Source of the DNA: Promethearchaeota archaeon
GTDB lineage: Archaea > Asgardarchaeota > Hermodarchaeia > Hermodarchaeales > Hermodarchaeaceae
Direction of reading: 5' to 3'
NCBI GenBank assembly: GCA_048938295.1
Contig: JBHLMI010000028.1
Span: 1 to 31,851 of the forward strand
Length of the DNA stretch: 31,851 nt
Shown: piece after piece, positions 8,423-16,438 of the stretch
Position numbering within the stretch: position 1 is the stretch's first letter
Layout: each line of letters opens with the position of its first letter
Program-made: the position numbers and the translations under genes
The notes under the pieces: model-generated
The model's input: only the letters and a program-made list of their open reading frames with translations
The model's database searches: none
Told to the model about the DNA's origin: nothing

Positions 8423-8806
8423 TTATCGGTTCAACTTCTTGGCAATTTTTTTTGCTGCGCGTTCCATATTGATAAAAACTAGTCCAAGCCCAGCAAGGCT
8501 TTCCGTGTTGGTACTCACCATTAGTACCGAATCCGGTCCTGCTGCAACCATGATTACTGCCCCGGTACTTCCCTGAGCGAAAACTTGGCTTAATGCACCT
8601 TTCCCTAAATCAGACGCAGCGCGTTCTCCTACAGTAAGCAAGGCGGCGCTCATTGCTGCGAGTAATGTTTCATCATACTCTTCCGGAAGCTTTGCAGCAA
8701 TGGGTAGCCCATCAACACCCACAACAACCGCTGCTTCAATCTCTTCAACTGACTCAGTAAGACTCTCCAATATCTTTTCAATTTCAGGAGAACTGGGTAT
8801 CATCAA
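8423..8806 (-). CDS. Roadblock/LC7 (MglB-like) protein RB1
   Basis: IEAAVVVGVDGLPIAA...DETLLAAMSAALL.VGERA..DLG.G.L.QV....G...LGLV roadblock pattern. 7 bp downstream of the GTPase. Confidence 0.9.
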   Translation of the reverse strand: MMIPSSPEIEKILESLTESVEEIEAAVVVGVDGLPIAAKLPEEYDETLLAAMSAALLTVGERAASDLGKGALSQVFAQGSTGAVIMVAAGPDSVLMVSTNTESLAGLGLVFINMERAAKKIAKKLNR

Positions 8807-8813
8807 TTTAACT

Positions 8814-9401
8814 CTAGCTCGCTGAAGCTTTTGCAGGAGTCTTAGGGTACAAATGGTACATCAAGATATCGCGGGTTATTTGTCTGAACGTGCGTTTCAC
8901 ATTTTCACCCGTTAATGCACAGGTTGTGAAATTTGGCGCATTACCTAGTCCCAGCTTTGCAAGTATGACATTTTTTTCCATAGCGTTTGGCAGGTCCTGT
9001 TTATTTAACATTACAACAAGGCTAATGGAATGGCCGAGTTCTTCACCAACAAAAGAACGCAGCTCAGACATACTTTCAATATTGGCTTCCATTTGATCAG
9101 GTGACGAGTCTGCAACATAAATAATACCATCAACACCACTCAAGATGACCTTTCGTTGACCTCGATGTCGACGCTGGCCAGCAACAGTGTAAACATCGAA
9201 TACTACCTGTGCGGTAGCTTGCATTGGAGTATAATCAAAAAAGAGTGTTCGGCCGGTATGATCGGCGACTGATGTGAATCCGCCTTTGTTTAATCCCTCA
9301 ATATTATCATAAATCCAACGGAGTGCTGTTGTTTTTCCTGATAATGAGGGCCCCCAGAATACGATTTTAAAATGTATTCTTCCCTGTGTGTCTTTCTTCA
9401 A
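8814..9401 (-). CDS. MglA-type small Ras-superfamily GTPase
   Basis: KIVFWGPSLSGKTT (G1), GRTLFFD (switch I with Arg), YTVAGQ (G3), L.GVDGIIYVADS, NKQD (G4), TCA (G5). TTG start with GGAG upstream. Confidence 0.88.
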   Translation of the reverse strand: MKKDTQGRIHFKIVFWGPSLSGKTTALRWIYDNIEGLNKGGFTSVADHTGRTLFFDYTPMQATAQVVFDVYTVAGQRRHRGQRKVILSGVDGIIYVADSSPDQMEANIESMSELRSFVGEELGHSISLVVMLNKQDLPNAMEKNVILAKLGLGNAPNFTTCALTGENVKRTFRQITRDILMYHLYPKTPAKASAS

Positions 9402-9447: not shown

Positions 9448-9918
9448 CTAACCCTTCTCAAGTTCTCCCAATGCGGCCTTAAGCTCTTCCCGCTCCGCAT
9501 CAGTTTTTCCAGCAGCAACGGCAGGCTTTTCGGCCATGAACTCATCTAGTACTTTCGCGAGCTCAGCAGCCGCCTTCATCATTGTTAAGCGTATCATGCC
9601 AATGTTCACTTCTTTATCTGTAATCACGCATAATACACCTTTGCCAGCACCTGCAGCAAAGATCTTGCCATCGCCAAATTCCGACGTCACAATGGTCAAA
9701 TCGCCCACATCAAGGCTCTTACCTTGTTCCTCGCTTGCGCAAAACACGGCACTAGCAATGGCGCCAATACCATCAACGTCCACTGGATAGTATGAGAATT
9801 TCGAGACGTGAGCAATGGTTAGTCCTGTTCGGTCTACTAGAATAGTCTTCTTGATTCCTGGTTCGGATTTGATGACATCGGAGAGGATCTCATCAAATTG
9901 CCGTACGGTTATGGACAC
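9448..9918 (-). CDS. Roadblock/LC7 protein RB2 with C-terminal linker plus amphipathic helix
   Basis: ILVDRTGLTIA...IGAIASAVF.ASEEQGK.L..G.L...SEF..GKIF core, then the tail KPAVAAGKTDAEREELKAALGELEKG. Confidence 0.85.
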   Translation of the reverse strand: MSITVRQFDEILSDVIKSEPGIKKTILVDRTGLTIAHVSKFSYYPVDVDGIGAIASAVFCASEEQGKSLDVGDLTIVTSEFGDGKIFAAGAGKGVLCVITDKEVNIGMIRLTMMKAAAELAKVLDEFMAEKPAVAAGKTDAEREELKAALGELEKG

Positions 9919-9998
9919 GGTTCATCCCTTTCCATGAGGCTAGCCGAGCTTATCTTCGAGAGATGACTTTTAATTCTTGTGTGGAGAATGTTGGATTC

Positions 9999-10286
9999 TC
10001 AACCTCGCATGACGATGAGAATATAGTCCTCTTCGGGGGCGACCATGACCTCACCTGCTGGTGTTGAGATGGTAAGAAAGTTCATGCCGCCTTCTCCTAG
10101 TTCATCGACAACACGTTTAGCCTTTCCTACCAGTGAAGTGACAAGCGCTGCGATGACCTCAGTTTTTTCTGCGTTTAGATTGGAGCTGATTGGAAGGCCT
10201 TCCATGTTAGTAATTATGACGCCACGAACACCTTCGTGGGCTCCGAGGCGCTTTAGTGAGTCTTTTAACGCTTTTCCGCCAATCAT
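9999..10286 (-). CDS. Roadblock protein RB3, dynein light chain roadblock (DYNLRB/LC7)-like
   Basis: LKRL...GV.GVII.N.EG.PI.S...KA...V...FL.I....E.MVAP..DY.LIV. ATG at 10286 with GGAG upstream is preferred over GTG at 10298, giving 95 aa. Confidence 0.88.
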
Positions 10287-10329: not shown

Positions 10330-10340
10330 AAGTTATAAAA
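10330..10340. promoter_or_regulatory. TATA-like element in the divergent RB3/RB4 intergenic region
   Basis: AAGTTATAAAA; on the minus strand TTTTATAAC lies about 45 nt above the RB3 ATG. Confidence 0.45.
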
Positions 10341-10471: not shown

Positions 10472-10855
10472 ATGGGTGTGGCTTTCATGCTCGGAAAGAA
10501 AGAAGTAGAACAGATTCTTGCAGAAATCATGGATACTATCCCTGAACTCGAGGGACTAATCGCCGCCGCTCCGACAGGGAAGGTCGTTGCAGGACAGACT
10601 CTGCGCGAAATGGACCATAATGCCATTACTACAAGCGTTGCTGCCCTGTTGAAGGAAACAAAAATTGTAAGCAAAGCTGTCGATCAAGGTCCCGTGCAAT
10701 CGATGTATTTGGAAACAGATAAGGGTTATACCGTGGCCGTAACTGCCTCAAAGACAATGGTTGTTGCCATCGCCGGTAAAGATGCGGCTCCAAGTCTGGG
10801 ACTCATTATTCGGAGTCTCCGTTCTGCGGTCGATAAAATCGGGAAAACTCCATAA
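10472..10855 (+). CDS. Roadblock/LC7 protein RB4 (divergent)
   Basis: IPELEGLIAA..TGKVVAG...G......ET.KG...LGLI...L..A..KI. Fold pattern and C-terminal LGL motif are shared with RB1. True start may be ATG 10487. Confidence 0.72.
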   Translation: MGVAFMLGKKEVEQILAEIMDTIPELEGLIAAAPTGKVVAGQTLREMDHNAITTSVAALLKETKIVSKAVDQGPVQSMYLETDKGYTVAVTASKTMVVAIAGKDAAPSLGLIIRSLRSAVDKIGKTP

Positions 10856-10986: not shown

Positions 10987-13900
10987 GTGGCTTACTTACA
11001 ACATATCACAATTCAGGGGTTCAAAAGCTTCAGTTCGCGTAAAACCACAATTGATCTCAATAAGGGATTCACCGCAATAGTCGGTGAAAATGGGTGTGGT
11101 AAAAGCAACATTTTGGATGCTGTTTGCTTTGTACTTGGACGGTTAAGCAGCAAATCACTTCGCGCAGAGAATTTTGCCTCATTGCTATTTAATGGAGGTG
11201 CCGATAACACGCCTTCAAAGATAAGTCGAGTGAGTTTGGTTTTTAATAACACTGACCGGCAGTTTCCAATTGACAGTGACGAAATCACAATTAGCCGTGA
11301 GGTGGATGAAACCGGTATTAGCGCTTATCGTATAGGCGGTAAACGTGTTACGCGTACAGAAATGTTAGATACGATAGCTGTCGCTGGGCTCCATCCGGAA
11401 GGCCATAATATCGTGATGCAAAACGAGTTGGCTAATGTCATTACCATGACACCGACGGAGATACGTCAGGTTGTTGAGGGAGTAGCCGGGATTTCAGTTT
11501 TTGATGAGAAGAAACAGCAGATTGAAAGTGAATTAACGAAAGTTGATCAAAACCTTCACATGGTACAGATGCGTACCGAAGAAATTCGTCAAGAATACAC
11601 TCGTTTGGAAAAGGACAGGATAGATGCTCTTCGTTGGCGAGATATAACTGAGCAGCTAGCAAAGCTTGAAAGAGATCTCGTATTTGCTGAACTGGCACGC
11701 GTTGAAGAACGGTTGAACAAAATGAACGAGGAGTTCGAATTGTACTCTTCGAATGTCAAGGAGCTTGAAACTCGCCGTCAACAAGCGAAGGACCGGAAAC
11801 TCGAATTAGAAGAAAGGGCACAAACTGACCAAGAGAGAATAAAGCAATTTGACCAGCAATTGCACCAAAAGGAAATTGAACAGACCCGCATTCAAGAAAT
11901 TCTGAAAGGATCACAACTTGTCTCAGCACAGGTCTCTCAAGATGTTGAACTACTATCTGCAAGCCTGGAACATCTCGAGTCCCAGAAAACCGACAATCAA
12001 AATCGTTACTCCCAAATGGAGGAGGAAATTTCTATCCTCAAATCGCAAGAAGCCTCCTTCCAAGAACGCATTTCTCCTATTCACGAACGTCTTTCAGAAC
12101 TTTCTAGGCAAACCACTTCTCCTGACGCTGAGTACATGTCACTCAGAGAAGAAATACTCAGGCTAACAGAGCGTATTGAAGCCAAGAAGAGTGAACTTGG
12201 CGAAACTTCTGCATTAAGCCGAGTCACAGAAAGAACAATTATGGATACTAAAAAACAAATCGAAGATGGTTACGCTCTTCTTCCTGAACAAGAAATAGCA
12301 CTAGATGAAGCAAATTCAGAGATACAAAACCTCGAAAAACAGCTTCAATCCCTCAAATTAGAGCTAACGAACCTACAGCAACAAAAAGACGAGTATTATA
12401 ATTCATTGCAAGAAAAACAGAACAAGCATGAAGAACTGAACCAATTAATTCAGGATTCTAAAGAAGAACTCCTCGAAGCACAAACTCGATTAAAAACTAT
12501 ACGCGAATTCAAGAAGTATGGTCTTACTCGCAAGAGCGCAATAGATGCAGTTCTGAAACATGCAAAGGAAAACAAAATTCATGGGGTCTATGGAACCCTA
12601 GGCAGTCTTGGAAAAACTTCATCAAAACATGCGACTGCTCTTGAAGTTGCAGGTGGTGGGCGGCTCGATTTCATTGTCGTCGATAGTGAAGAGACGGCTA
12701 CAAAATGTATAGAACACTTGAAGAAGAGTCGTCTCGGTCAGGCAACTTTCATTCCTCTTGATACGATTAAATCCAACCCCTACACTCATAAAAGCGGAGA
12801 AAAGGGAGTCGTGGGGAACGCAATTGATTTGCTGACCTTCGAAGAGCAGTATCGCCCCGCATTTGAATTTGTCTTTGGTCGAACCCTTATTGTGAAAGAC
12901 TTGAAACTTGCTCGCAACATCAGGGCTGAAGGCGTGCGAAAAATCACGGTTGATGGTGATGTTGTTGAACCTAACCGCACATTGACGGGCGGCTTTTACA
13001 AAGGCATCTCCTCATTAACTCTCGAAGAGGAGGCAAGAATTCCAGAGCTGCAGAAAAAACTCAAAGAACTTCGCACGCTCCAAGCCAAAGTCGAAGGCGA
13101 ATATCAACAATGGACAGACAAAATCAGCAATTTGGATAGCCAGCTCAGAGAAAAGCAAAAGCAGTTTGATGAGTTACAACTCAAGTACGATAGAGCCAGT
13201 GAAATTAGAGACTCCCAAGAAGAAGTATTCGCTGATTTCAAAGGAAGTCTTGCGAAACTGCGCGAAAGTTTGAAAGATGAAGAAGACACGAAGAGCTCCT
13301 TAGAAGAGAAATTCCGAGTAGATCAATTGGAAATCGATGAGATGATTAAAAAACGAGAAGAGGTCCAACAAAGCCTTTCGATCCTTGAAAGAAGTAGCTT
13401 GGATCCGAATCTTACAGCTCTTCGAACCCAGCTAGATGAGCTGGAATCAGAACTTCAAGACACACAGCTTCAACTAATCGAGAGAACTAGCGAAGCTAAG
13501 CATGTTAAAGGGGAGGTCAAACGACTTTCAGAAGACCATAATAACGCGAAGGCAGAGTTGACACAGAAAAAAGCGCAACTAGCGGCAAATATAGCTCAAA
13601 TTGAAAAAAATCAAGCGCAACTTACCCAATTAGAAACTGATGTAGCAACCCTCAATGAACAAATACGCGGGCTCGAAACACAAGTTGCAGCTCATGAAAA
13701 TGAAAATCGACAGCTAACAAATACAATCGATGAATTGCTTGATAAGATCAATGAAGAAAAAATGGAGCGTTCTAAGGTCGAAGGGCGGATTGAACACTGG
13801 CAAGAGCGCTATGATACTCAAAAGGAGAAGACTGTGGGGTTAGAGCCGCCTTTGCTCCCCTTAAATCCCGAACAAGTTCTCAGCTTCCGTCGACAGATCG

Positions 13901-14550
13901 CAAACCTCCAACAGGAACGAGAGCAAATGGGTCTCATCAACCAAAAAGCCGTGGAACGCTTTGAAGAAATTCGCCACGCCTATGATGAAATATTAGAAAA
14001 AGAGAGTAAAATTCGAGAGGAACGTGAAGCCATTCTTGATGCAATGCGAAAAGCCGAGGAGGAGAAATTCCGCGTATTTATGGCAGCCTTTTCGAGTATC
14101 TCTAATAATTATTCGGATGTCTATCATCAACTTACACAAGGAGTTGGTCAGCTGGAGTTAGAGAATCCAGAAAACCCCTTTTTAGGAGGGATTCGAATGA
14201 AGGTCAGACCTGCAGGAAAACGCGTCCAATACCTCGATGCCCTTTCTGGTGGCGAAAAGGCACTCACAGCTTTAACGTTCATGTTCGCACTGCAACTCCA
14301 TCAGCCTGCTCCCTTCTACTTCCTCGATGAAATCGATGAGGCCTTAGATCCCAATAACACCGATAGGGTAGCCCAGCTAGTATCAAATCTTTCGGAAAAC
14401 TCACAGTTTCTCATTATTTCTCACAACGAAATTACAGTCCGCAGAGCGCAGGCTCTATTGGGAGTTGCATTGGTTGACGGTGTATCACAAGTCTTTTCAG
14501 TTCAATTTGAAGAAGGCCTGCTGATGATTGAAGGGGCAAGTAAAACCTAG
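10987..14550 (+). CDS. smc: Chromosome segregation protein SMC (condensin)
   Basis: GFKSF, GENGCGKSNILDA Walker A, two long coiled coils, hinge (GVYG...LEVAGGGRL.FIVV...GQATFIPLD), LSGGEK signature, FLDEIDEALD Walker B/D-loop, IISHN. Confidence 0.97.
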   Translation: MAYLQHITIQGFKSFSSRKTTIDLNKGFTAIVGENGCGKSNILDAVCFVLGRLSSKSLRAENFASLLFNGGADNTPSKISRVSLVFNNTDRQFPIDSDEITISREVDETGISAYRIGGKRVTRTEMLDTIAVAGLHPEGHNIVMQNELANVITMTPTEIRQVVEGVAGISVFDEKKQQIESELTKVDQNLHMVQMRTEEIRQEYTRLEKDRIDALRWRDITEQLAKLERDLVFAELARVEERLNKMNEEFELYSSNVKELETRRQQAKDRKLELEERAQTDQERIKQFDQQLHQKEIEQTRIQEILKGSQLVSAQVSQDVELLSASLEHLESQKTDNQNRYSQMEEEISILKSQEASFQERISPIHERLSELSRQTTSPDAEYMSLREEILRLTERIEAKKSELGETSALSRVTERTIMDTKKQIEDGYALLPEQEIALDEANSEIQNLEKQLQSLKLELTNLQQQKDEYYNSLQEKQNKHEELNQLIQDSKEELLEAQTRLKTIREFKKYGLTRKSAIDAVLKHAKENKIHGVYGTLGSLGKTSSKHATALEVAGGGRLDFIVVDSEETATKCIEHLKKSRLGQATFIPLDTIKSNPYTHKSGEKGVVGNAIDLLTFEEQYRPAFEFVFGRTLIVKDLKLARNIRAEGVRKITVDGDVVEPNRTLTGGFYKGISSLTLEEEARIPELQKKLKELRTLQAKVEGEYQQWTDKISNLDSQLREKQKQFDELQLKYDRASEIRDSQEEVFADFKGSLAKLRESLKDEEDTKSSLEEKFRVDQLEIDEMIKKREEVQQSLSILERSSLDPNLTALRTQLDELESELQDTQLQLIERTSEAKHVKGEVKRLSEDHNNAKAELTQKKAQLAANIAQIEKNQAQLTQLETDVATLNEQIRGLETQVAAHENENRQLTNTIDELLDKINEEKMERSKVEGRIEHWQERYDTQKEKTVGLEPPLLPLNPEQVLSFRRQIANLQQEREQMGLINQKAVERFEEIRHAYDEILEKESKIREEREAILDAMRKAEEEKFRVFMAAFSSISNNYSDVYHQLTQGVGQLELENPENPFLGGIRMKVRPAGKRVQYLDALSGGEKALTALTFMFALQLHQPAPFYFLDEIDEALDPNNTDRVAQLVSNLSENSQFLIISHNEITVRRAQALLGVALVDGVSQVFSVQFEEGLLMIEGASKT

Positions 14551-14638
14551 TGAAAACCTCTGATAATACATCAGGTTATATAGGATGCATTTATCAAGTA
14601 TAACAAAATCGTGAAGCCAAAAGGAGAACGATAACCTA

Positions 14639-15328
14639 GTGACAGAAACTAGCCCTGAACCATTCTGGTTCCATCAACCATGGCGAGTCCTTACTGACAT
14701 TCTCGAATTACAAAAGATTAGCCCATGGGAACTTGACCTGGCGGAACTAGTGAATGGGTTTATTGGGCGTTTACTCACCGAAGAATACATCGATCTTCGA
14801 ATTTGTGGTCGTGCCCTCCTTTCAGCAGCTATATTACTACGATTGAAAACAGAGTATCTACTTGAATTCGGGAGAGAGGAAGAGGAAATCCTTCGAGTAA
14901 TCGAGGAAGATATATTTCTCCCTCCAATCCGCCCCCCATTTCGGAAAAATATTCGACCAACATCTTCAGCTGAATTTGTTGAGGCATTACGAGAACTCGT
15001 TTTTCCTCCTAAGAAATATACACGAAAGCACATCAAAGGTAGTGGATCATTACCGGTGATACCCCAGTTTGATGGTTCATCAATCGAATTGACCAAATCA
15101 ATGATGCAAGTCCATGCACGATTAATTGAAGCAAGCCTTAAGAACCATCCAGTCTCGTTCGTCAACTTCGTTACTGGAATGTCACATATCGAAATTATCC
15201 GGGTGTTTCTCTGTCTACTGATCTTTATAAACAAAAGAAGTATCCGGATCGCCCAGGACCGACAATTTGGCGACATAATGATTTGGGTCCAAGATCCTTT
15301 GAGTGAGGAGGCTAGAGCCGGTGGATGA
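14639..15328 (+). CDS. scpA: Kleisin subunit ScpA
   Basis: ISPWELDL...F...DLRICGRALLSAAILLRLKTE N-terminal domain; C-terminal winged helix FL.LL......I.I.Q..QFGDI.I. Follows smc. Confidence 0.88.
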   Translation: MTETSPEPFWFHQPWRVLTDILELQKISPWELDLAELVNGFIGRLLTEEYIDLRICGRALLSAAILLRLKTEYLLEFGREEEEILRVIEEDIFLPPIRPPFRKNIRPTSSAEFVEALRELVFPPKKYTRKHIKGSGSLPVIPQFDGSSIELTKSMMQVHARLIEASLKNHPVSFVNFVTGMSHIEIIRVFLCLLIFINKRSIRIAQDRQFGDIMIWVQDPLSEEARAGG

Positions 15329-15869
15329 GGCAACACGGTTAGTTGAAGCTGCGCTCTATATTTCAGGACGGCCTCTCACAATCCACGAAATCCAACAGGC
15401 TACTCAAATACCCACATTAAGGCAAGTTCGCGATTGTATTCAACAGATAGCTAAGGAGTATGAAGAACGAGAAGGAGCGTTGGAAATCGTCAGGCTTCCT
15501 CGTCAACGCTTTGTCCTCCAAATGAAACCAGAACTCACTGAAGCTGTTAGCCGTCTGGCTCCGCAAGGGCTGCTTGCGTTAGGGGAATTAAAAACGCTCA
15601 TCTATATTGCCCTCTCACAACCAATCCTCCAATCAGATGTTGTCGTCTACCGAGGATCCCATAGTTACAAGCACATCAAGAACTTAGAAGCACATGGTTT
15701 CATTGAAGCCATACCAGCTGGCCGAACAAAAGAACTTGCTACAACTGAAATGTTTGCTGATTACTTCGGATTTGATTATGAAATTGACAAACTCAAAGGC
15801 CAACTCAAGAAAATGATTAGACAAATTCGGATAGAACAGTCCGAACTAACGACTGCGGCTGAGAAATAG
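15321..15869 (+). CDS. scpB: Kite subunit ScpB
   Basis: VEAALYISGRPL, LKTL.YIA..QPI.QSD...RG..SY.HIK.L...GFI, TTEMFADYFG. Start placed at GTG 15321, 9 nt after GAGGAGG (15305-15311), overlapping the scpA end by 8 nt. Confidence 0.9.
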   Translation: MDEATRLVEAALYISGRPLTIHEIQQATQIPTLRQVRDCIQQIAKEYEEREGALEIVRLPRQRFVLQMKPELTEAVSRLAPQGLLALGELKTLIYIALSQPILQSDVVVYRGSHSYKHIKNLEAHGFIEAIPAGRTKELATTEMFADYFGFDYEIDKLKGQLKKMIRQIRIEQSELTTAAEK

Positions 15870-15964
15870 CATCTTACAAACTTCCCCGAGTGCTTCGCGA
15901 ACTTTGTTAGTTTATATCTGCTTCTATATACTCAACAGAAGCTAAGTTACCCGAGGCTCCAAGT

Positions 15965-16438
15965 GTGGCACGAATCTCTCAGCCTTCTTTACCACAAATG
16001 GTCCCCCGCAATGAAGCTCATAAAACAAGTCCACCTGATGGGCTCTACTCCCTGTTCATCCTCAAGGAATCAGGATGTCCCTTTTATTATCGAATATTTA
16101 CGACCAATAAAGATCAACCTGACCCTGCTATTCTTGGAGGCTTTTTCATAGCGCTATCACTCTTTGCCAAAGAGGTAACTGATGGGCAAATCGAAACGAT
16201 TACAACTGAGCCCTGCAAATACACCTTCTATCCGCTTCGAAATGGGCTTTTAGTCATTAGTAGCGCAAAGTCGTTCAGCCCCATCATCCTTGAAACAATT
16301 GCTAAGCGTATCGCTAAATTATTTCTCACTAAATACAGTGATCGTCTCATCAAACCACAACCAGCAGCACTCTGTGCCCCTGACATCAACCAGCAAATCG
16401 AACGCATATTTGGTGAAACCTGCGCTCAAATCTCATAA
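15965..16438 (+). CDS. Standalone longin-like domain protein
   Basis: SLFILKESGCPFYYRIF...DPAILGGFFIALSLFAKEV..GQIETI...I..LF..KY follows the longin pattern (beta1-G-x-P-beta2, D-x-x-L-x-x-G-F-x-x-A helix). Start may be ATG 15998. Confidence 0.7.
   Translation: MARISQPSLPQMVPRNEAHKTSPPDGLYSLFILKESGCPFYYRIFTTNKDQPDPAILGGFFIALSLFAKEVTDGQIETITTEPCKYTFYPLRNGLLVISSAKSFSPIILETIAKRIAKLFLTKYSDRLIKPQPAALCAPDINQQIERIFGETCAQIS

What the first reader, a model, noticed from the sequence alone, without database searches (positions are those of the whole stretch)
9999..10286. 95-aa roadblock with striking residue-level similarity to eukaryotic dynein light chain DYNLRB, in an operon with a GTPase
Seen: LKRL-x4-GVxGxIxxNxEGxPIxS...KA...FLxI...ExMVAPxxDYxLIV. 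By-eye alignment against human DYNLRB1 as recalled from memory gives about 34 identities over about 90 positions and nearly the same length; this estimate was not computed. No dynein is known in archaea. Inference: the operon context suggests the ancestral partner of the dynein light chain was a small GTPase or a roadblock complex rather than a motor.
Basis: partly seen in the sequence, partly recalled or inferred. Interest (0 to 1): 0.65.

Follow-up and report, generated by a model that had tools for sequence, protein, structure and literature searches.

The report
Asgard ortholog of dynein Roadblock chain
This gene is a real archaeal counterpart of the eukaryotic dynein light chain Roadblock, from a family already reported and crystallised in Asgard archaea; its conserved neighbours and surface suggest, but do not show, that it served a small GTPase switch before dynein existed.

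Summary
Observation confirmed. Window 9999-10286 (-) encodes a 95-aa Roadblock of a Hermodarchaeia-type Asgard archaeon. It has 34 identities to human-type DYNLRB1 (36%); a eukaryotic DYNLRB profile scores it 88 bits, against 18 or less for every other ORF in the genome. Its model lacks the C-terminal helix, as DYNLRB does. In a tree, Asgard orthologs and eukaryotic DYNLRB form one side of a 99/98 branch, apart from MglB-like roadblocks (AU tests of alternatives borderline). The family is known: an Asgard 'RLC7 dynein homolog' was reported in 2016, and the Odin ortholog (about 64% identical) is PDB 7F8F. Orthologs occur in most Asgard families. In 72 of 93 loci the MglB-like RB2 or an MglA GTPase gene lies within 4 kb. 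No dynein parts were found in this genome. Four exposed helix-2 residues, on the face MglB uses to bind MglA, are near-fixed in Asgard but variable in eukaryotes. This favours a role as adaptor in an MglA-roadblock switch; binding is untested. The scan met this gene and cluster before in other Asgard genomes. Verdict: new member of a known kind; interest 0.3.

The parts
9999..10286 (-). RB3: 95-aa DYNLRB-type (RBLC7) roadblock, no C-terminal helix; the finding
   Evidence: Pfam Robl_LC7 69.8 bits; PDB 7F8F E 2e-29, DYNLRB E 1e-16 to 1e-15; model H4-15, E20-27, E32-35, H39-63, E71-75, E78-84, E88-94, pLDDT 92.6; Foldseek top 18 are 7F8F and dynein roadblocks; tree
10333..10339 (-). TATA-like box about 47 nt upstream of the RB3 start
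   Evidence: TTTATAA, same position in 8 Hermod loci; function inferred
9964..9976 (-). Second BRE/TATA-like element in the RB3-RB2 gap; RB2 may have its own promoter
   Evidence: A/T-rich box about 45-55 nt before RB2 in Hermod loci; function inferred
9448..9918 (-). RB2: 156-aa MglB-like roadblock with a variable linker and a conserved terminal amphipathic helix (LxxALxELE); most frequent neighbour of RB3
   Evidence: Best PDB hits MglB; 43 invariant columns incl. A149, L153, E154; groups with Deinococcus MglB 97/89, a long branch; within 4 kb of RB3 in 65 of 93 loci
8814..9401 (-). MglA-type small GTPase with intrinsic Arg (RTLFFD) and catalytic Gln (TVAGQ)
   Evidence: PDB MglA E 2e-35; Gln, P-loop and NKxD motifs in 73/73 orthologs, Arg motif in 66/73; within 4 kb of RB3 in 52 of 93 loci
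8423..8806 (-). RB1: 127-aa full roadblock of the widespread prokaryotic type
   Evidence: Robl_LC7 57 bits; hits 9JUE, 7F8M, CvnB5; actinobacterial relatives at 45-59%
10472..10855 (+). RB4: 127-aa roadblock, divergent from RB3; ortholog of MK-D1 Roadblock2 (PDB 9JQ8)
   Evidence: 9JQ8 E 3e-17; within 4 kb of RB3 in 58 of 93 loci, incl. Loki loci lacking RB2 and MglA

Best explanation
RB3 is the Hermodarchaeial member of the usually single-copy Asgard RBLC7 family, the archaeal source or sister of eukaryotic DYNLRB (shown, about 0.95). It most likely forms a homodimer like Odin-RBLC7 (from the published ortholog). It most likely acts as a non-catalytic adaptor subunit of an MglA-type GTPase switch built from four roadblocks (inferred). 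In this model the outer face of helix 2 (E43, A47, S51, G54) binds a conserved partner, MglA or the MglB-like RB2/RB4, and the groove left by the missing third helix takes a helix from a partner. Eukaryotes kept the helix-acceptor groove, which the dynein intermediate chain fills, and relaxed the helix-2 face.
For: Orthology: 36% to human-type DYNLRB1, 88 bits against <=18 for other ORFs; the Asgard profile scores DYNLRB up to 91 bits, LAMTOR2 19, LAMTOR5 13 and lists no MglB; Asgard plus eukaryote branch 99/98. Range: matches in 89 of 90 good genomes at E<=1e-8, mostly one strong copy. Context: 88 of 93 loci have RB1, RB2, RB4 or MglA within 4 kb, 72 have RB2 or MglA. The cluster breaks differently by lineage: RB3 sits next to MglA without RB2 in Heimdallarchaeum, next to RB2 without MglA in Odin, and next to RB4 in Loki. 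Gaps to the next gene are 1-30 bp in Thor, Baldr and Heimdallarchaeaceae loci. In two families (f16, f19) neither an RB3 nor an RB2 ortholog was found. Surface: the four most Asgard-specific conserved positions are 43, 47, 54 and 51, on a stripe about 150 degrees from the hydrophobic moment of helix 2, permutation p 0.01, post hoc. G54 aligns through RB2 C60 to T. thermophilus MglB A68, whose A68/72R change weakens MglA binding tenfold (PMC3199381). No dynein AAA, IC or LC8 domain found in the genome.
Against: No direct binding evidence. Neighbourhood may be inherited gene order: uppS and smc-scpAB often travel with the cluster too. In Lokiarchaeia, Helarchaeales and Hodarchaeales RB3 is not near RB2 or MglA, yet keeps E43 and A47, so its partner there is not given by context. 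Small residues at 47/51/54 could reflect tight helix packing in the dimer. AU tests do not reject alternative placements (p 0.053 and 0.073). Loci are not independent. The dynein searches had no positive control.
Confidence: 0.6

Rival explanations
1. RB3 is itself an MglB-like GAP/GEF platform: its homodimer, or an RB3-RB2 or RB3-RB4 heterodimer, binds MglA directly by the two-helix side. This is a narrower version of the best explanation and overlaps with it.
For: RB3 stands directly before MglA, in the mglB position, in Heimdallarchaeum and two other families; helix-2 outer face constrained; MglA supplies its own Arg and Gln, so a platform suffices.
Against: RB2 is the closer MglB relative and lies next to MglA in most lineages, including Hodarchaeales where RB3 has moved away. 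Position 58 (MglB A72) is not kept small.
Confidence: 0.25
2. RB3 already works as in dynein: it clamps a helical segment of an unknown Asgard scaffold (a WD40, coiled-coil or dynactin-like protein), and its place beside the GTPase is inherited gene order.
For: Tran et al. propose a helix-binding site for Odin-RBLC7. In Odin a DCTN5-like gene follows the roadblocks. RB3 is retained in Loki and Hod away from RB2 and MglA.
Against: No dynein heavy, intermediate or LC8 chain, nor p62, found here. Eukaryote-specific conserved residues (E8, E9, R13, D64, K76 positions) are not kept in Asgard. The DCTN5-like neighbour was seen only in Odin among the loci annotated.
Confidence: 0.25
3. The four roadblocks form a proto-Ragulator in which RB3 is the LAMTOR4/5 equivalent.
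For: Same truncated architecture as LAMTOR4/5; weak LAMTOR5 profile hit, 24.8 bits; RB2 passes the LAMTOR3 profile cut-off, 29.6 bits.
Against: Human-type DYNLRB1 scores the same on the LAMTOR5 profile (23.8 bits); the Asgard profile scores LAMTOR5 at 12.8 bits against about 90 for DYNLRB; the GTPase is MglA, not Rag; no LAMTOR1-like gene seen.
Confidence: 0.12
4. The gene is a eukaryotic contaminant, a transfer from a eukaryote, or a convergent look-alike.
For: None beyond the high identity.
Against: It sits among archaeal genes with archaeal signals; orthologs in conserved synteny across Asgard classes; eukaryotic sequences form their own 100/99 clade with no Asgard row inside; gap-poor similarity over the whole length.
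Confidence: 0.02

Closest known systems
Odin-RBLC7, PDB 7F8F (OLS18093.1, Odinarchaeota LCB_4; Tran et al. 2024, PMC10933270)
   Same: Ortholog: about 64% identity over 94 aa (60 identities counted; entry identity confirmed), same length, no C-terminal helix, same RB4/RB3/RB2/RB1 neighbourhood.
   Different: In Odin the MglA gene is not in the cluster; here it is. The paper notes similarity to DLRB1 and proposes a helix-binding site, but names no partner and says that MK-D1 GTPase genes are generally not in operons with roadblocks.
Eukaryotic dynein light chain Roadblock, DYNLRB1/2 (LC7; PDB 1Z09, 3L7H, 3L9K)
   Same: 32-40% identity, same fold and truncation (TM 0.8-0.9), one clade with the Asgard family.
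   Different: No dynein chains found in this genome; helix-1 EE..R and RIRSKK-type motifs are absent; the helix-2 outer face is fixed in Asgard and variable in eukaryotes.
Bacterial MglA/MglB/MglC polarity module (Thermus 3T12/3T1Q; Myxococcus 6IZW, 7CT3)
   Same: MglA-type GTPase with intrinsic Arg and Gln next to several roadblocks; MglC is a second roadblock that binds MglB rather than MglA (PMC7949163), a working analogy for RB3.
   Different: RB3 is not an MglB or MglC ortholog (no hit), and MglC keeps helix 3. Four distinct roadblocks here; no RomR-like gene was seen in the window.
Ragulator (LAMTOR2/3 and LAMTOR4/5) with Rag GTPases
   Same: Full and truncated roadblocks associated with a small GTPase.
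   Different: GTPase is MglA-type; RB3 is far closer to DYNLRB than to LAMTOR5.

Membership tests
Asgard RBLC7 / RLC7 family (7F8F) | Roadblock fold of about 95 aa lacking the C-terminal helix | tested here: met
   Model ends at strand 88-94, pLDDT 92.6; Foldseek top hit 7F8F, rmsd 1.0
Asgard RBLC7 / RLC7 family (7F8F) | Orthology to Odin-RBLC7 by sequence, tree and synteny | tested here: met
   E 2e-29; same clade; same gene cluster
Asgard RBLC7 / RLC7 family (7F8F) | Homodimer | not tested
   Known for the Odin ortholog; not modelled or measured for this protein
DYNLRB/LC7 lineage | Closer to DYNLRB than to any other roadblock class outside its own family | tested here: met
   branch 99/98, AU tests of alternatives p 0.053-0.073
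DYNLRB/LC7 lineage | Subunit of a dynein complex (heavy and intermediate chains encoded) | tested here: not met
   No PF12774 match over cut-off, no PF11540 or PF01221 match in a 91.6% complete genome; no positive control rang
DYNLRB/LC7 lineage | Binds the intermediate-chain amphipathic helices | not testable with these tools
   Needs a peptide binding assay
MglB (GAP/GEF of MglA) | Full roadblock with helix 3 and sequence affinity to MglB | tested here: not met
   RB3 lacks helix 3 and has no MglB hit; RB2 meets this
MglB (GAP/GEF of MglA) | Small residues on the two-helix side that admit MglA | tested here: inconclusive
   A47, S51, G54 near-fixed; G54 matches MglB A68, but the A72 position is variable
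MglB (GAP/GEF of MglA) | Stimulates MglA GTP hydrolysis or exchange | not testable with these tools
   Needs biochemistry
Ragulator LAMTOR4/5 | Specific sequence affinity to LAMTOR4/5 and a Rag partner | tested here: not met
   LAMTOR5 profile 24.8 bits, under cut-off 27 and equal to DYNLRB1's 23.8; 12.8 bits; GTPase is MglA. LAMTOR4/5 were not in the tree.

The most novel reading that the evidence does not exclude
The last Asgard common ancestor had one MglA switch built with four roadblocks, in which the DYNLRB ancestor was a physical subunit that bound the GTPase or RB2 through its helix-2 face and a partner helix through its open groove. Eukaryotes took this subunit out of the switch, kept the groove for the dynein intermediate chain and lost the GTPase-side interface. 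The dynein light chain's pre-motor job could then be rebuilt in vitro from five small genes in this window.
Probability: 0.45. Interest if true: 0.6.

Novelty: new member of a known kind. Interest (0 to 1): 0.3.

Why it matters
The homology itself is published and a close ortholog is crystallised, so the gene is not a discovery. What stays open is what the protein did before dynein existed; Tran et al. note that matching Asgard GTPases to regulators from genome layout is hard. Here the layout is informative: a cluster conserved across most Asgard classes names four candidate partners, and a surface stripe names residues to mutate. That makes Koonin and Aravind's idea that Roadblock/LC7 proteins are ancient NTPase regulators directly testable for the DYNLRB lineage. 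The scan has already noted the cluster in other genomes; the helix-2 comparison was not seen in the papers or notes I read.

Tried and rejected
1) Complex prediction, RB3 dimer plus RB2 tail (residues 127-156): score 0.01, verdict 'no answer'; neither for nor against binding. 2) look-up of sequencing runs, RNA: no RNA holder listed; says nothing on expression or operon structure. 3) The sigma-70 promoter scan does not suit archaea; I used a TATA search instead. 4) A paper search by PDB codes returned only unrelated papers; Liu et al. 2021 was not held. No paper on the MK-D1 structures 9JUE and 9JQ8 was found. 5) The 136-row careful tree did not finish (quick tree only); a 66-row careful tree was used, leaving out long-branch paralogs of this genome and a 127-aa Baldr paralog. 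LAMTOR4/5 and MglC sequences could not be obtained by reference and are missing from both trees. 6) Which Asgard lineage is closest to DYNLRB: unresolved. The free tree puts it near Loki plus Hodarchaeales (96/77, not starred); Asgard monophyly (p 0.27) and eukaryotes plus Hodarchaeales (p 0.14) are not rejected. 7) Dynactin p62 was not found in this genome (no positive control). 8) I first recalled MglC as a truncated roadblock; the paper shows it keeps helix 3, so that analogy is functional only. 9) Genome G004 lacks RB3 and has an RB2 without the tail motif, but it lacks the clustered MglA too, so it cannot tell which partner the tail serves.

Full report
Setting. The window carries archaeal information genes (tfb, fibrillarin, Nop5, Elp3, cdc6, smc-scpAB; names beyond one search are from reading the translations). 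The protein's closest named relatives are Hermodarchaeia at 94-100%, so the host is a Hermodarchaeia-type Asgard archaeon (genome 2.52 Mb, 91.6% complete).

Observation. The ORF at 9999-10286 (-) is 95 aa with an ATG start, a GTGGAG ribosome site and a TATA box at 10339 that is conserved in relatives. Pfam gives Robl_LC7 at 69.8 bits. Against the PDB the best hit is 7F8F (E 2e-29), followed by 22 dynein roadblock chains before any other prokaryotic roadblock. A global alignment gives 34/95 and z 28.5; RB1, RB2 and RB4 average 22-24% to 34 eukaryotic sequences against 35.6% for RB3. A eukaryotic DYNLRB profile scores RB3 at 88 bits and no other ORF of the genome above 18.3. The genome has 14 roadblock matches; only this one is DYNLRB-like.

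Structure. The AlphaFold2 model (pLDDT 92.6) has helix 1, two strands, helix 2 and three strands, and ends with no third helix. Foldseek ranks 7F8F first and dynein roadblocks at ranks 2-18.

Phylogeny. A profile of Asgard orthologs run over 1.8 billion representatives returns Asgard proteins and then DYNLRB-like proteins; those I could name are animal and fungal dynein roadblocks. In a 66-row, 97-column tree (LG+C20+F+G4), 24 Asgard RBLC7 and 14 eukaryotic rows lie on one side of a branch with 99/98 support, apart from RB1, RB2, RB4, actinobacterial and Deinococcus-Thermus roadblocks; eukaryotes are their own 100/99 group. AU tests that force eukaryotes next to RB2/MglB or RB1/bacteria cost 18.5 and 26.0 log units but give p 0.073 and 0.053, so the alternatives are disfavoured, not formally rejected. 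The position of eukaryotes within or beside the Asgard rows is unresolved. LAMTOR4/5 were not in the tree; by profile score they are far more distant (12.8 bits against about 90).

What is known. A 2016 review reports 'a RLC7 dynein homolog' in Lokiarchaeum (PMC4917890). A 2021 preprint covering Hermodarchaeota lists RLC7 roadblock genes in all its MAGs (10.1101/2021.04.02.438162). Tran et al. 2024 solved Odin-RBLC7 as a homodimer by molecular replacement with Drosophila Roadblock, noted its likeness to DLRB1 and proposed that the missing helix leaves a site for a partner's helix (PMC10933270); 7F8F is that structure. JGI already labels some orthologs 'dynein light chain roadblock-type'. The gene is therefore a new member of a known family.

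Range and neighbourhood. The family profile matches 274 of 301 Asgard genomes and 89 of 90 good ones at E<=1e-8, a threshold that admits a few weak paralog hits; most genomes have one strong copy. The full order, RB4 divergent from RB3-RB2-MglA-RB1-uppS, or the RB3-RB2-MglA core, is seen in Hermod, Freyr/Jord, Atabey, Baldr, Borr, Wukong and Thor loci. Odin keeps the four roadblocks without MglA. Heimdallarchaeum and two related families keep RB3 directly before MglA without RB2. One Heimdallarchaeota family keeps RB3 facing RB2. Loki and Hel loci keep RB3 with RB4. Hodarchaeales carry a diverged tandem pair away from RB2-MglA-RB1. Over 93 loci, 88 have at least one of the four partners within 4 kb: RB2 65, RB4 58, RB1 57, MglA 52; these loci are related, so the counts are not independent. 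Two families gave neither an RB3 nor an RB2 ortholog while keeping an MglA-like gene (genomes 66-91% complete). Different lineages keeping different pairs is what one expects when an ancestral module is broken up. But uppS and smc-scpAB often stay nearby too, so some of the linkage may be inherited order. In this genome a second TATA-like element before RB2 means co-transcription is not shown; gaps of 1-30 bp in Thor, Baldr and Heimdallarchaeaceae loci argue for it there.

Surface constraint. Comparing 41 Asgard and 34 eukaryotic rows of similar diversity (mean identity 0.49 and 0.45), the four positions most conserved in Asgard relative to eukaryotes are E43, A47, G54 and S51 (100, 100, 93 and 88% in Asgard; commonest residue 24-38% in eukaryotes). 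They form one stripe of helix 2, about 150 degrees from its hydrophobic face (permutation p 0.01, chosen after seeing the data). In MglB this two-helix side binds MglA, and A68/72R cuts affinity tenfold (PMC3199381). Chaining alignments puts G54 at MglB A68; the A72 position is not kept small. Eukaryote-specific conservation lies elsewhere, on helix 1 and the strand 3-4 hairpin. I read this as a conserved Asgard ligand on the GTPase-binding side that eukaryotes lost. Tight dimer packing is the other reading; I had no coordinates to compute exposure.

Partners. The GTPase is MglA-type with the intrinsic Arg and Gln. RB2 is the best MglB candidate and ends in a conserved amphipathic helix on a variable linker. 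That helix could bind MglA, as the Myxococcus MglB C-terminal helix does, or fill the RB3 groove; I could not decide this. No dynein motor, intermediate chain, LC8 or p62 domain was found in the genome, without a positive control.

Mechanism and status. Shown: orthology to Odin-RBLC7, membership of the DYNLRB lineage, truncated fold, conserved linkage to MglA and three roadblocks, Asgard-specific helix-2 constraint. Taken from the ortholog: homodimer with a free helix-binding groove. Inferred: RB3 is an adaptor subunit of an MglA switch (about 0.6), possibly binding MglA directly (about 0.25). Rivals are an unrelated helical scaffold (0.25) and a proto-Ragulator role (0.12).

Verdict. The family is published and the scan has met this gene and cluster in other Asgard genomes. 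New member of a known kind; interest 0.3; the most novel reading has probability 0.45 and would merit 0.6.

Noticed in passing
L115:6048-6731, L124:6013-6694, L125:2395-3169: Hodarchaeales and a related family carry a tandem pair of diverged RBLC7 genes, each copy forming its own clade, away from RB2-MglA-RB1. A possible heterodimer, recalling LC7a/LC7b; the tree does not tie it to eukaryotes (p-AU 0.14 for that grouping).
   Followed up: partly
L093:4287-5921 and other Thor loci (L091, L094, L105-L107, L110): In Thorarchaeia a gene of about 545 aa is inserted between RB4 and RB3, divergent from RB3; in L093 it is Sec23/Sec24-like.
   Followed up: partly
L108:3396-5063: In Odin a DCTN5 (dynactin p25)-like gene, over the Pfam cut-off, and a 376-aa gene follow the roadblocks; earlier scan reports call the second p62-like.
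   Followed up: partly
window 9448-9480 (RB2 C-terminus): Terminal motif LxxALxELE on a variable linker is conserved across most Asgard classes and in the distant RB2 paralogs of Heimdallarchaeum; it is changed in Lokiarchaeia and lost in G004, which lacks RB3 and the clustered MglA.
   Followed up: partly
L092, L095, L113 (Loki loci): RB3-RB4 lie between an ScpA-like gene and a roughly 1350-aa gene with no Pfam hit at E 0.01; possibly a diverged smc-scpA context.
   Followed up: no
window 10987-16438: smc-scpA-scpB follow RB4 directly and stay near the roadblock cluster in Hermod, Freyr, Thor and Odin loci; a 157-aa longin-like gene without a Pfam hit follows scpB.
   Followed up: partly
window 8423-8806: RB1 has actinobacterial relatives at 45-59% identity, much closer than the other three roadblocks have to bacteria; suggests inter-domain exchange or slow evolution.
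   Followed up: no
L102:6031-6336: Borr/Sif-type genomes carry a second RBLC7 copy outside the cluster (G041 and G058).
   Followed up: no
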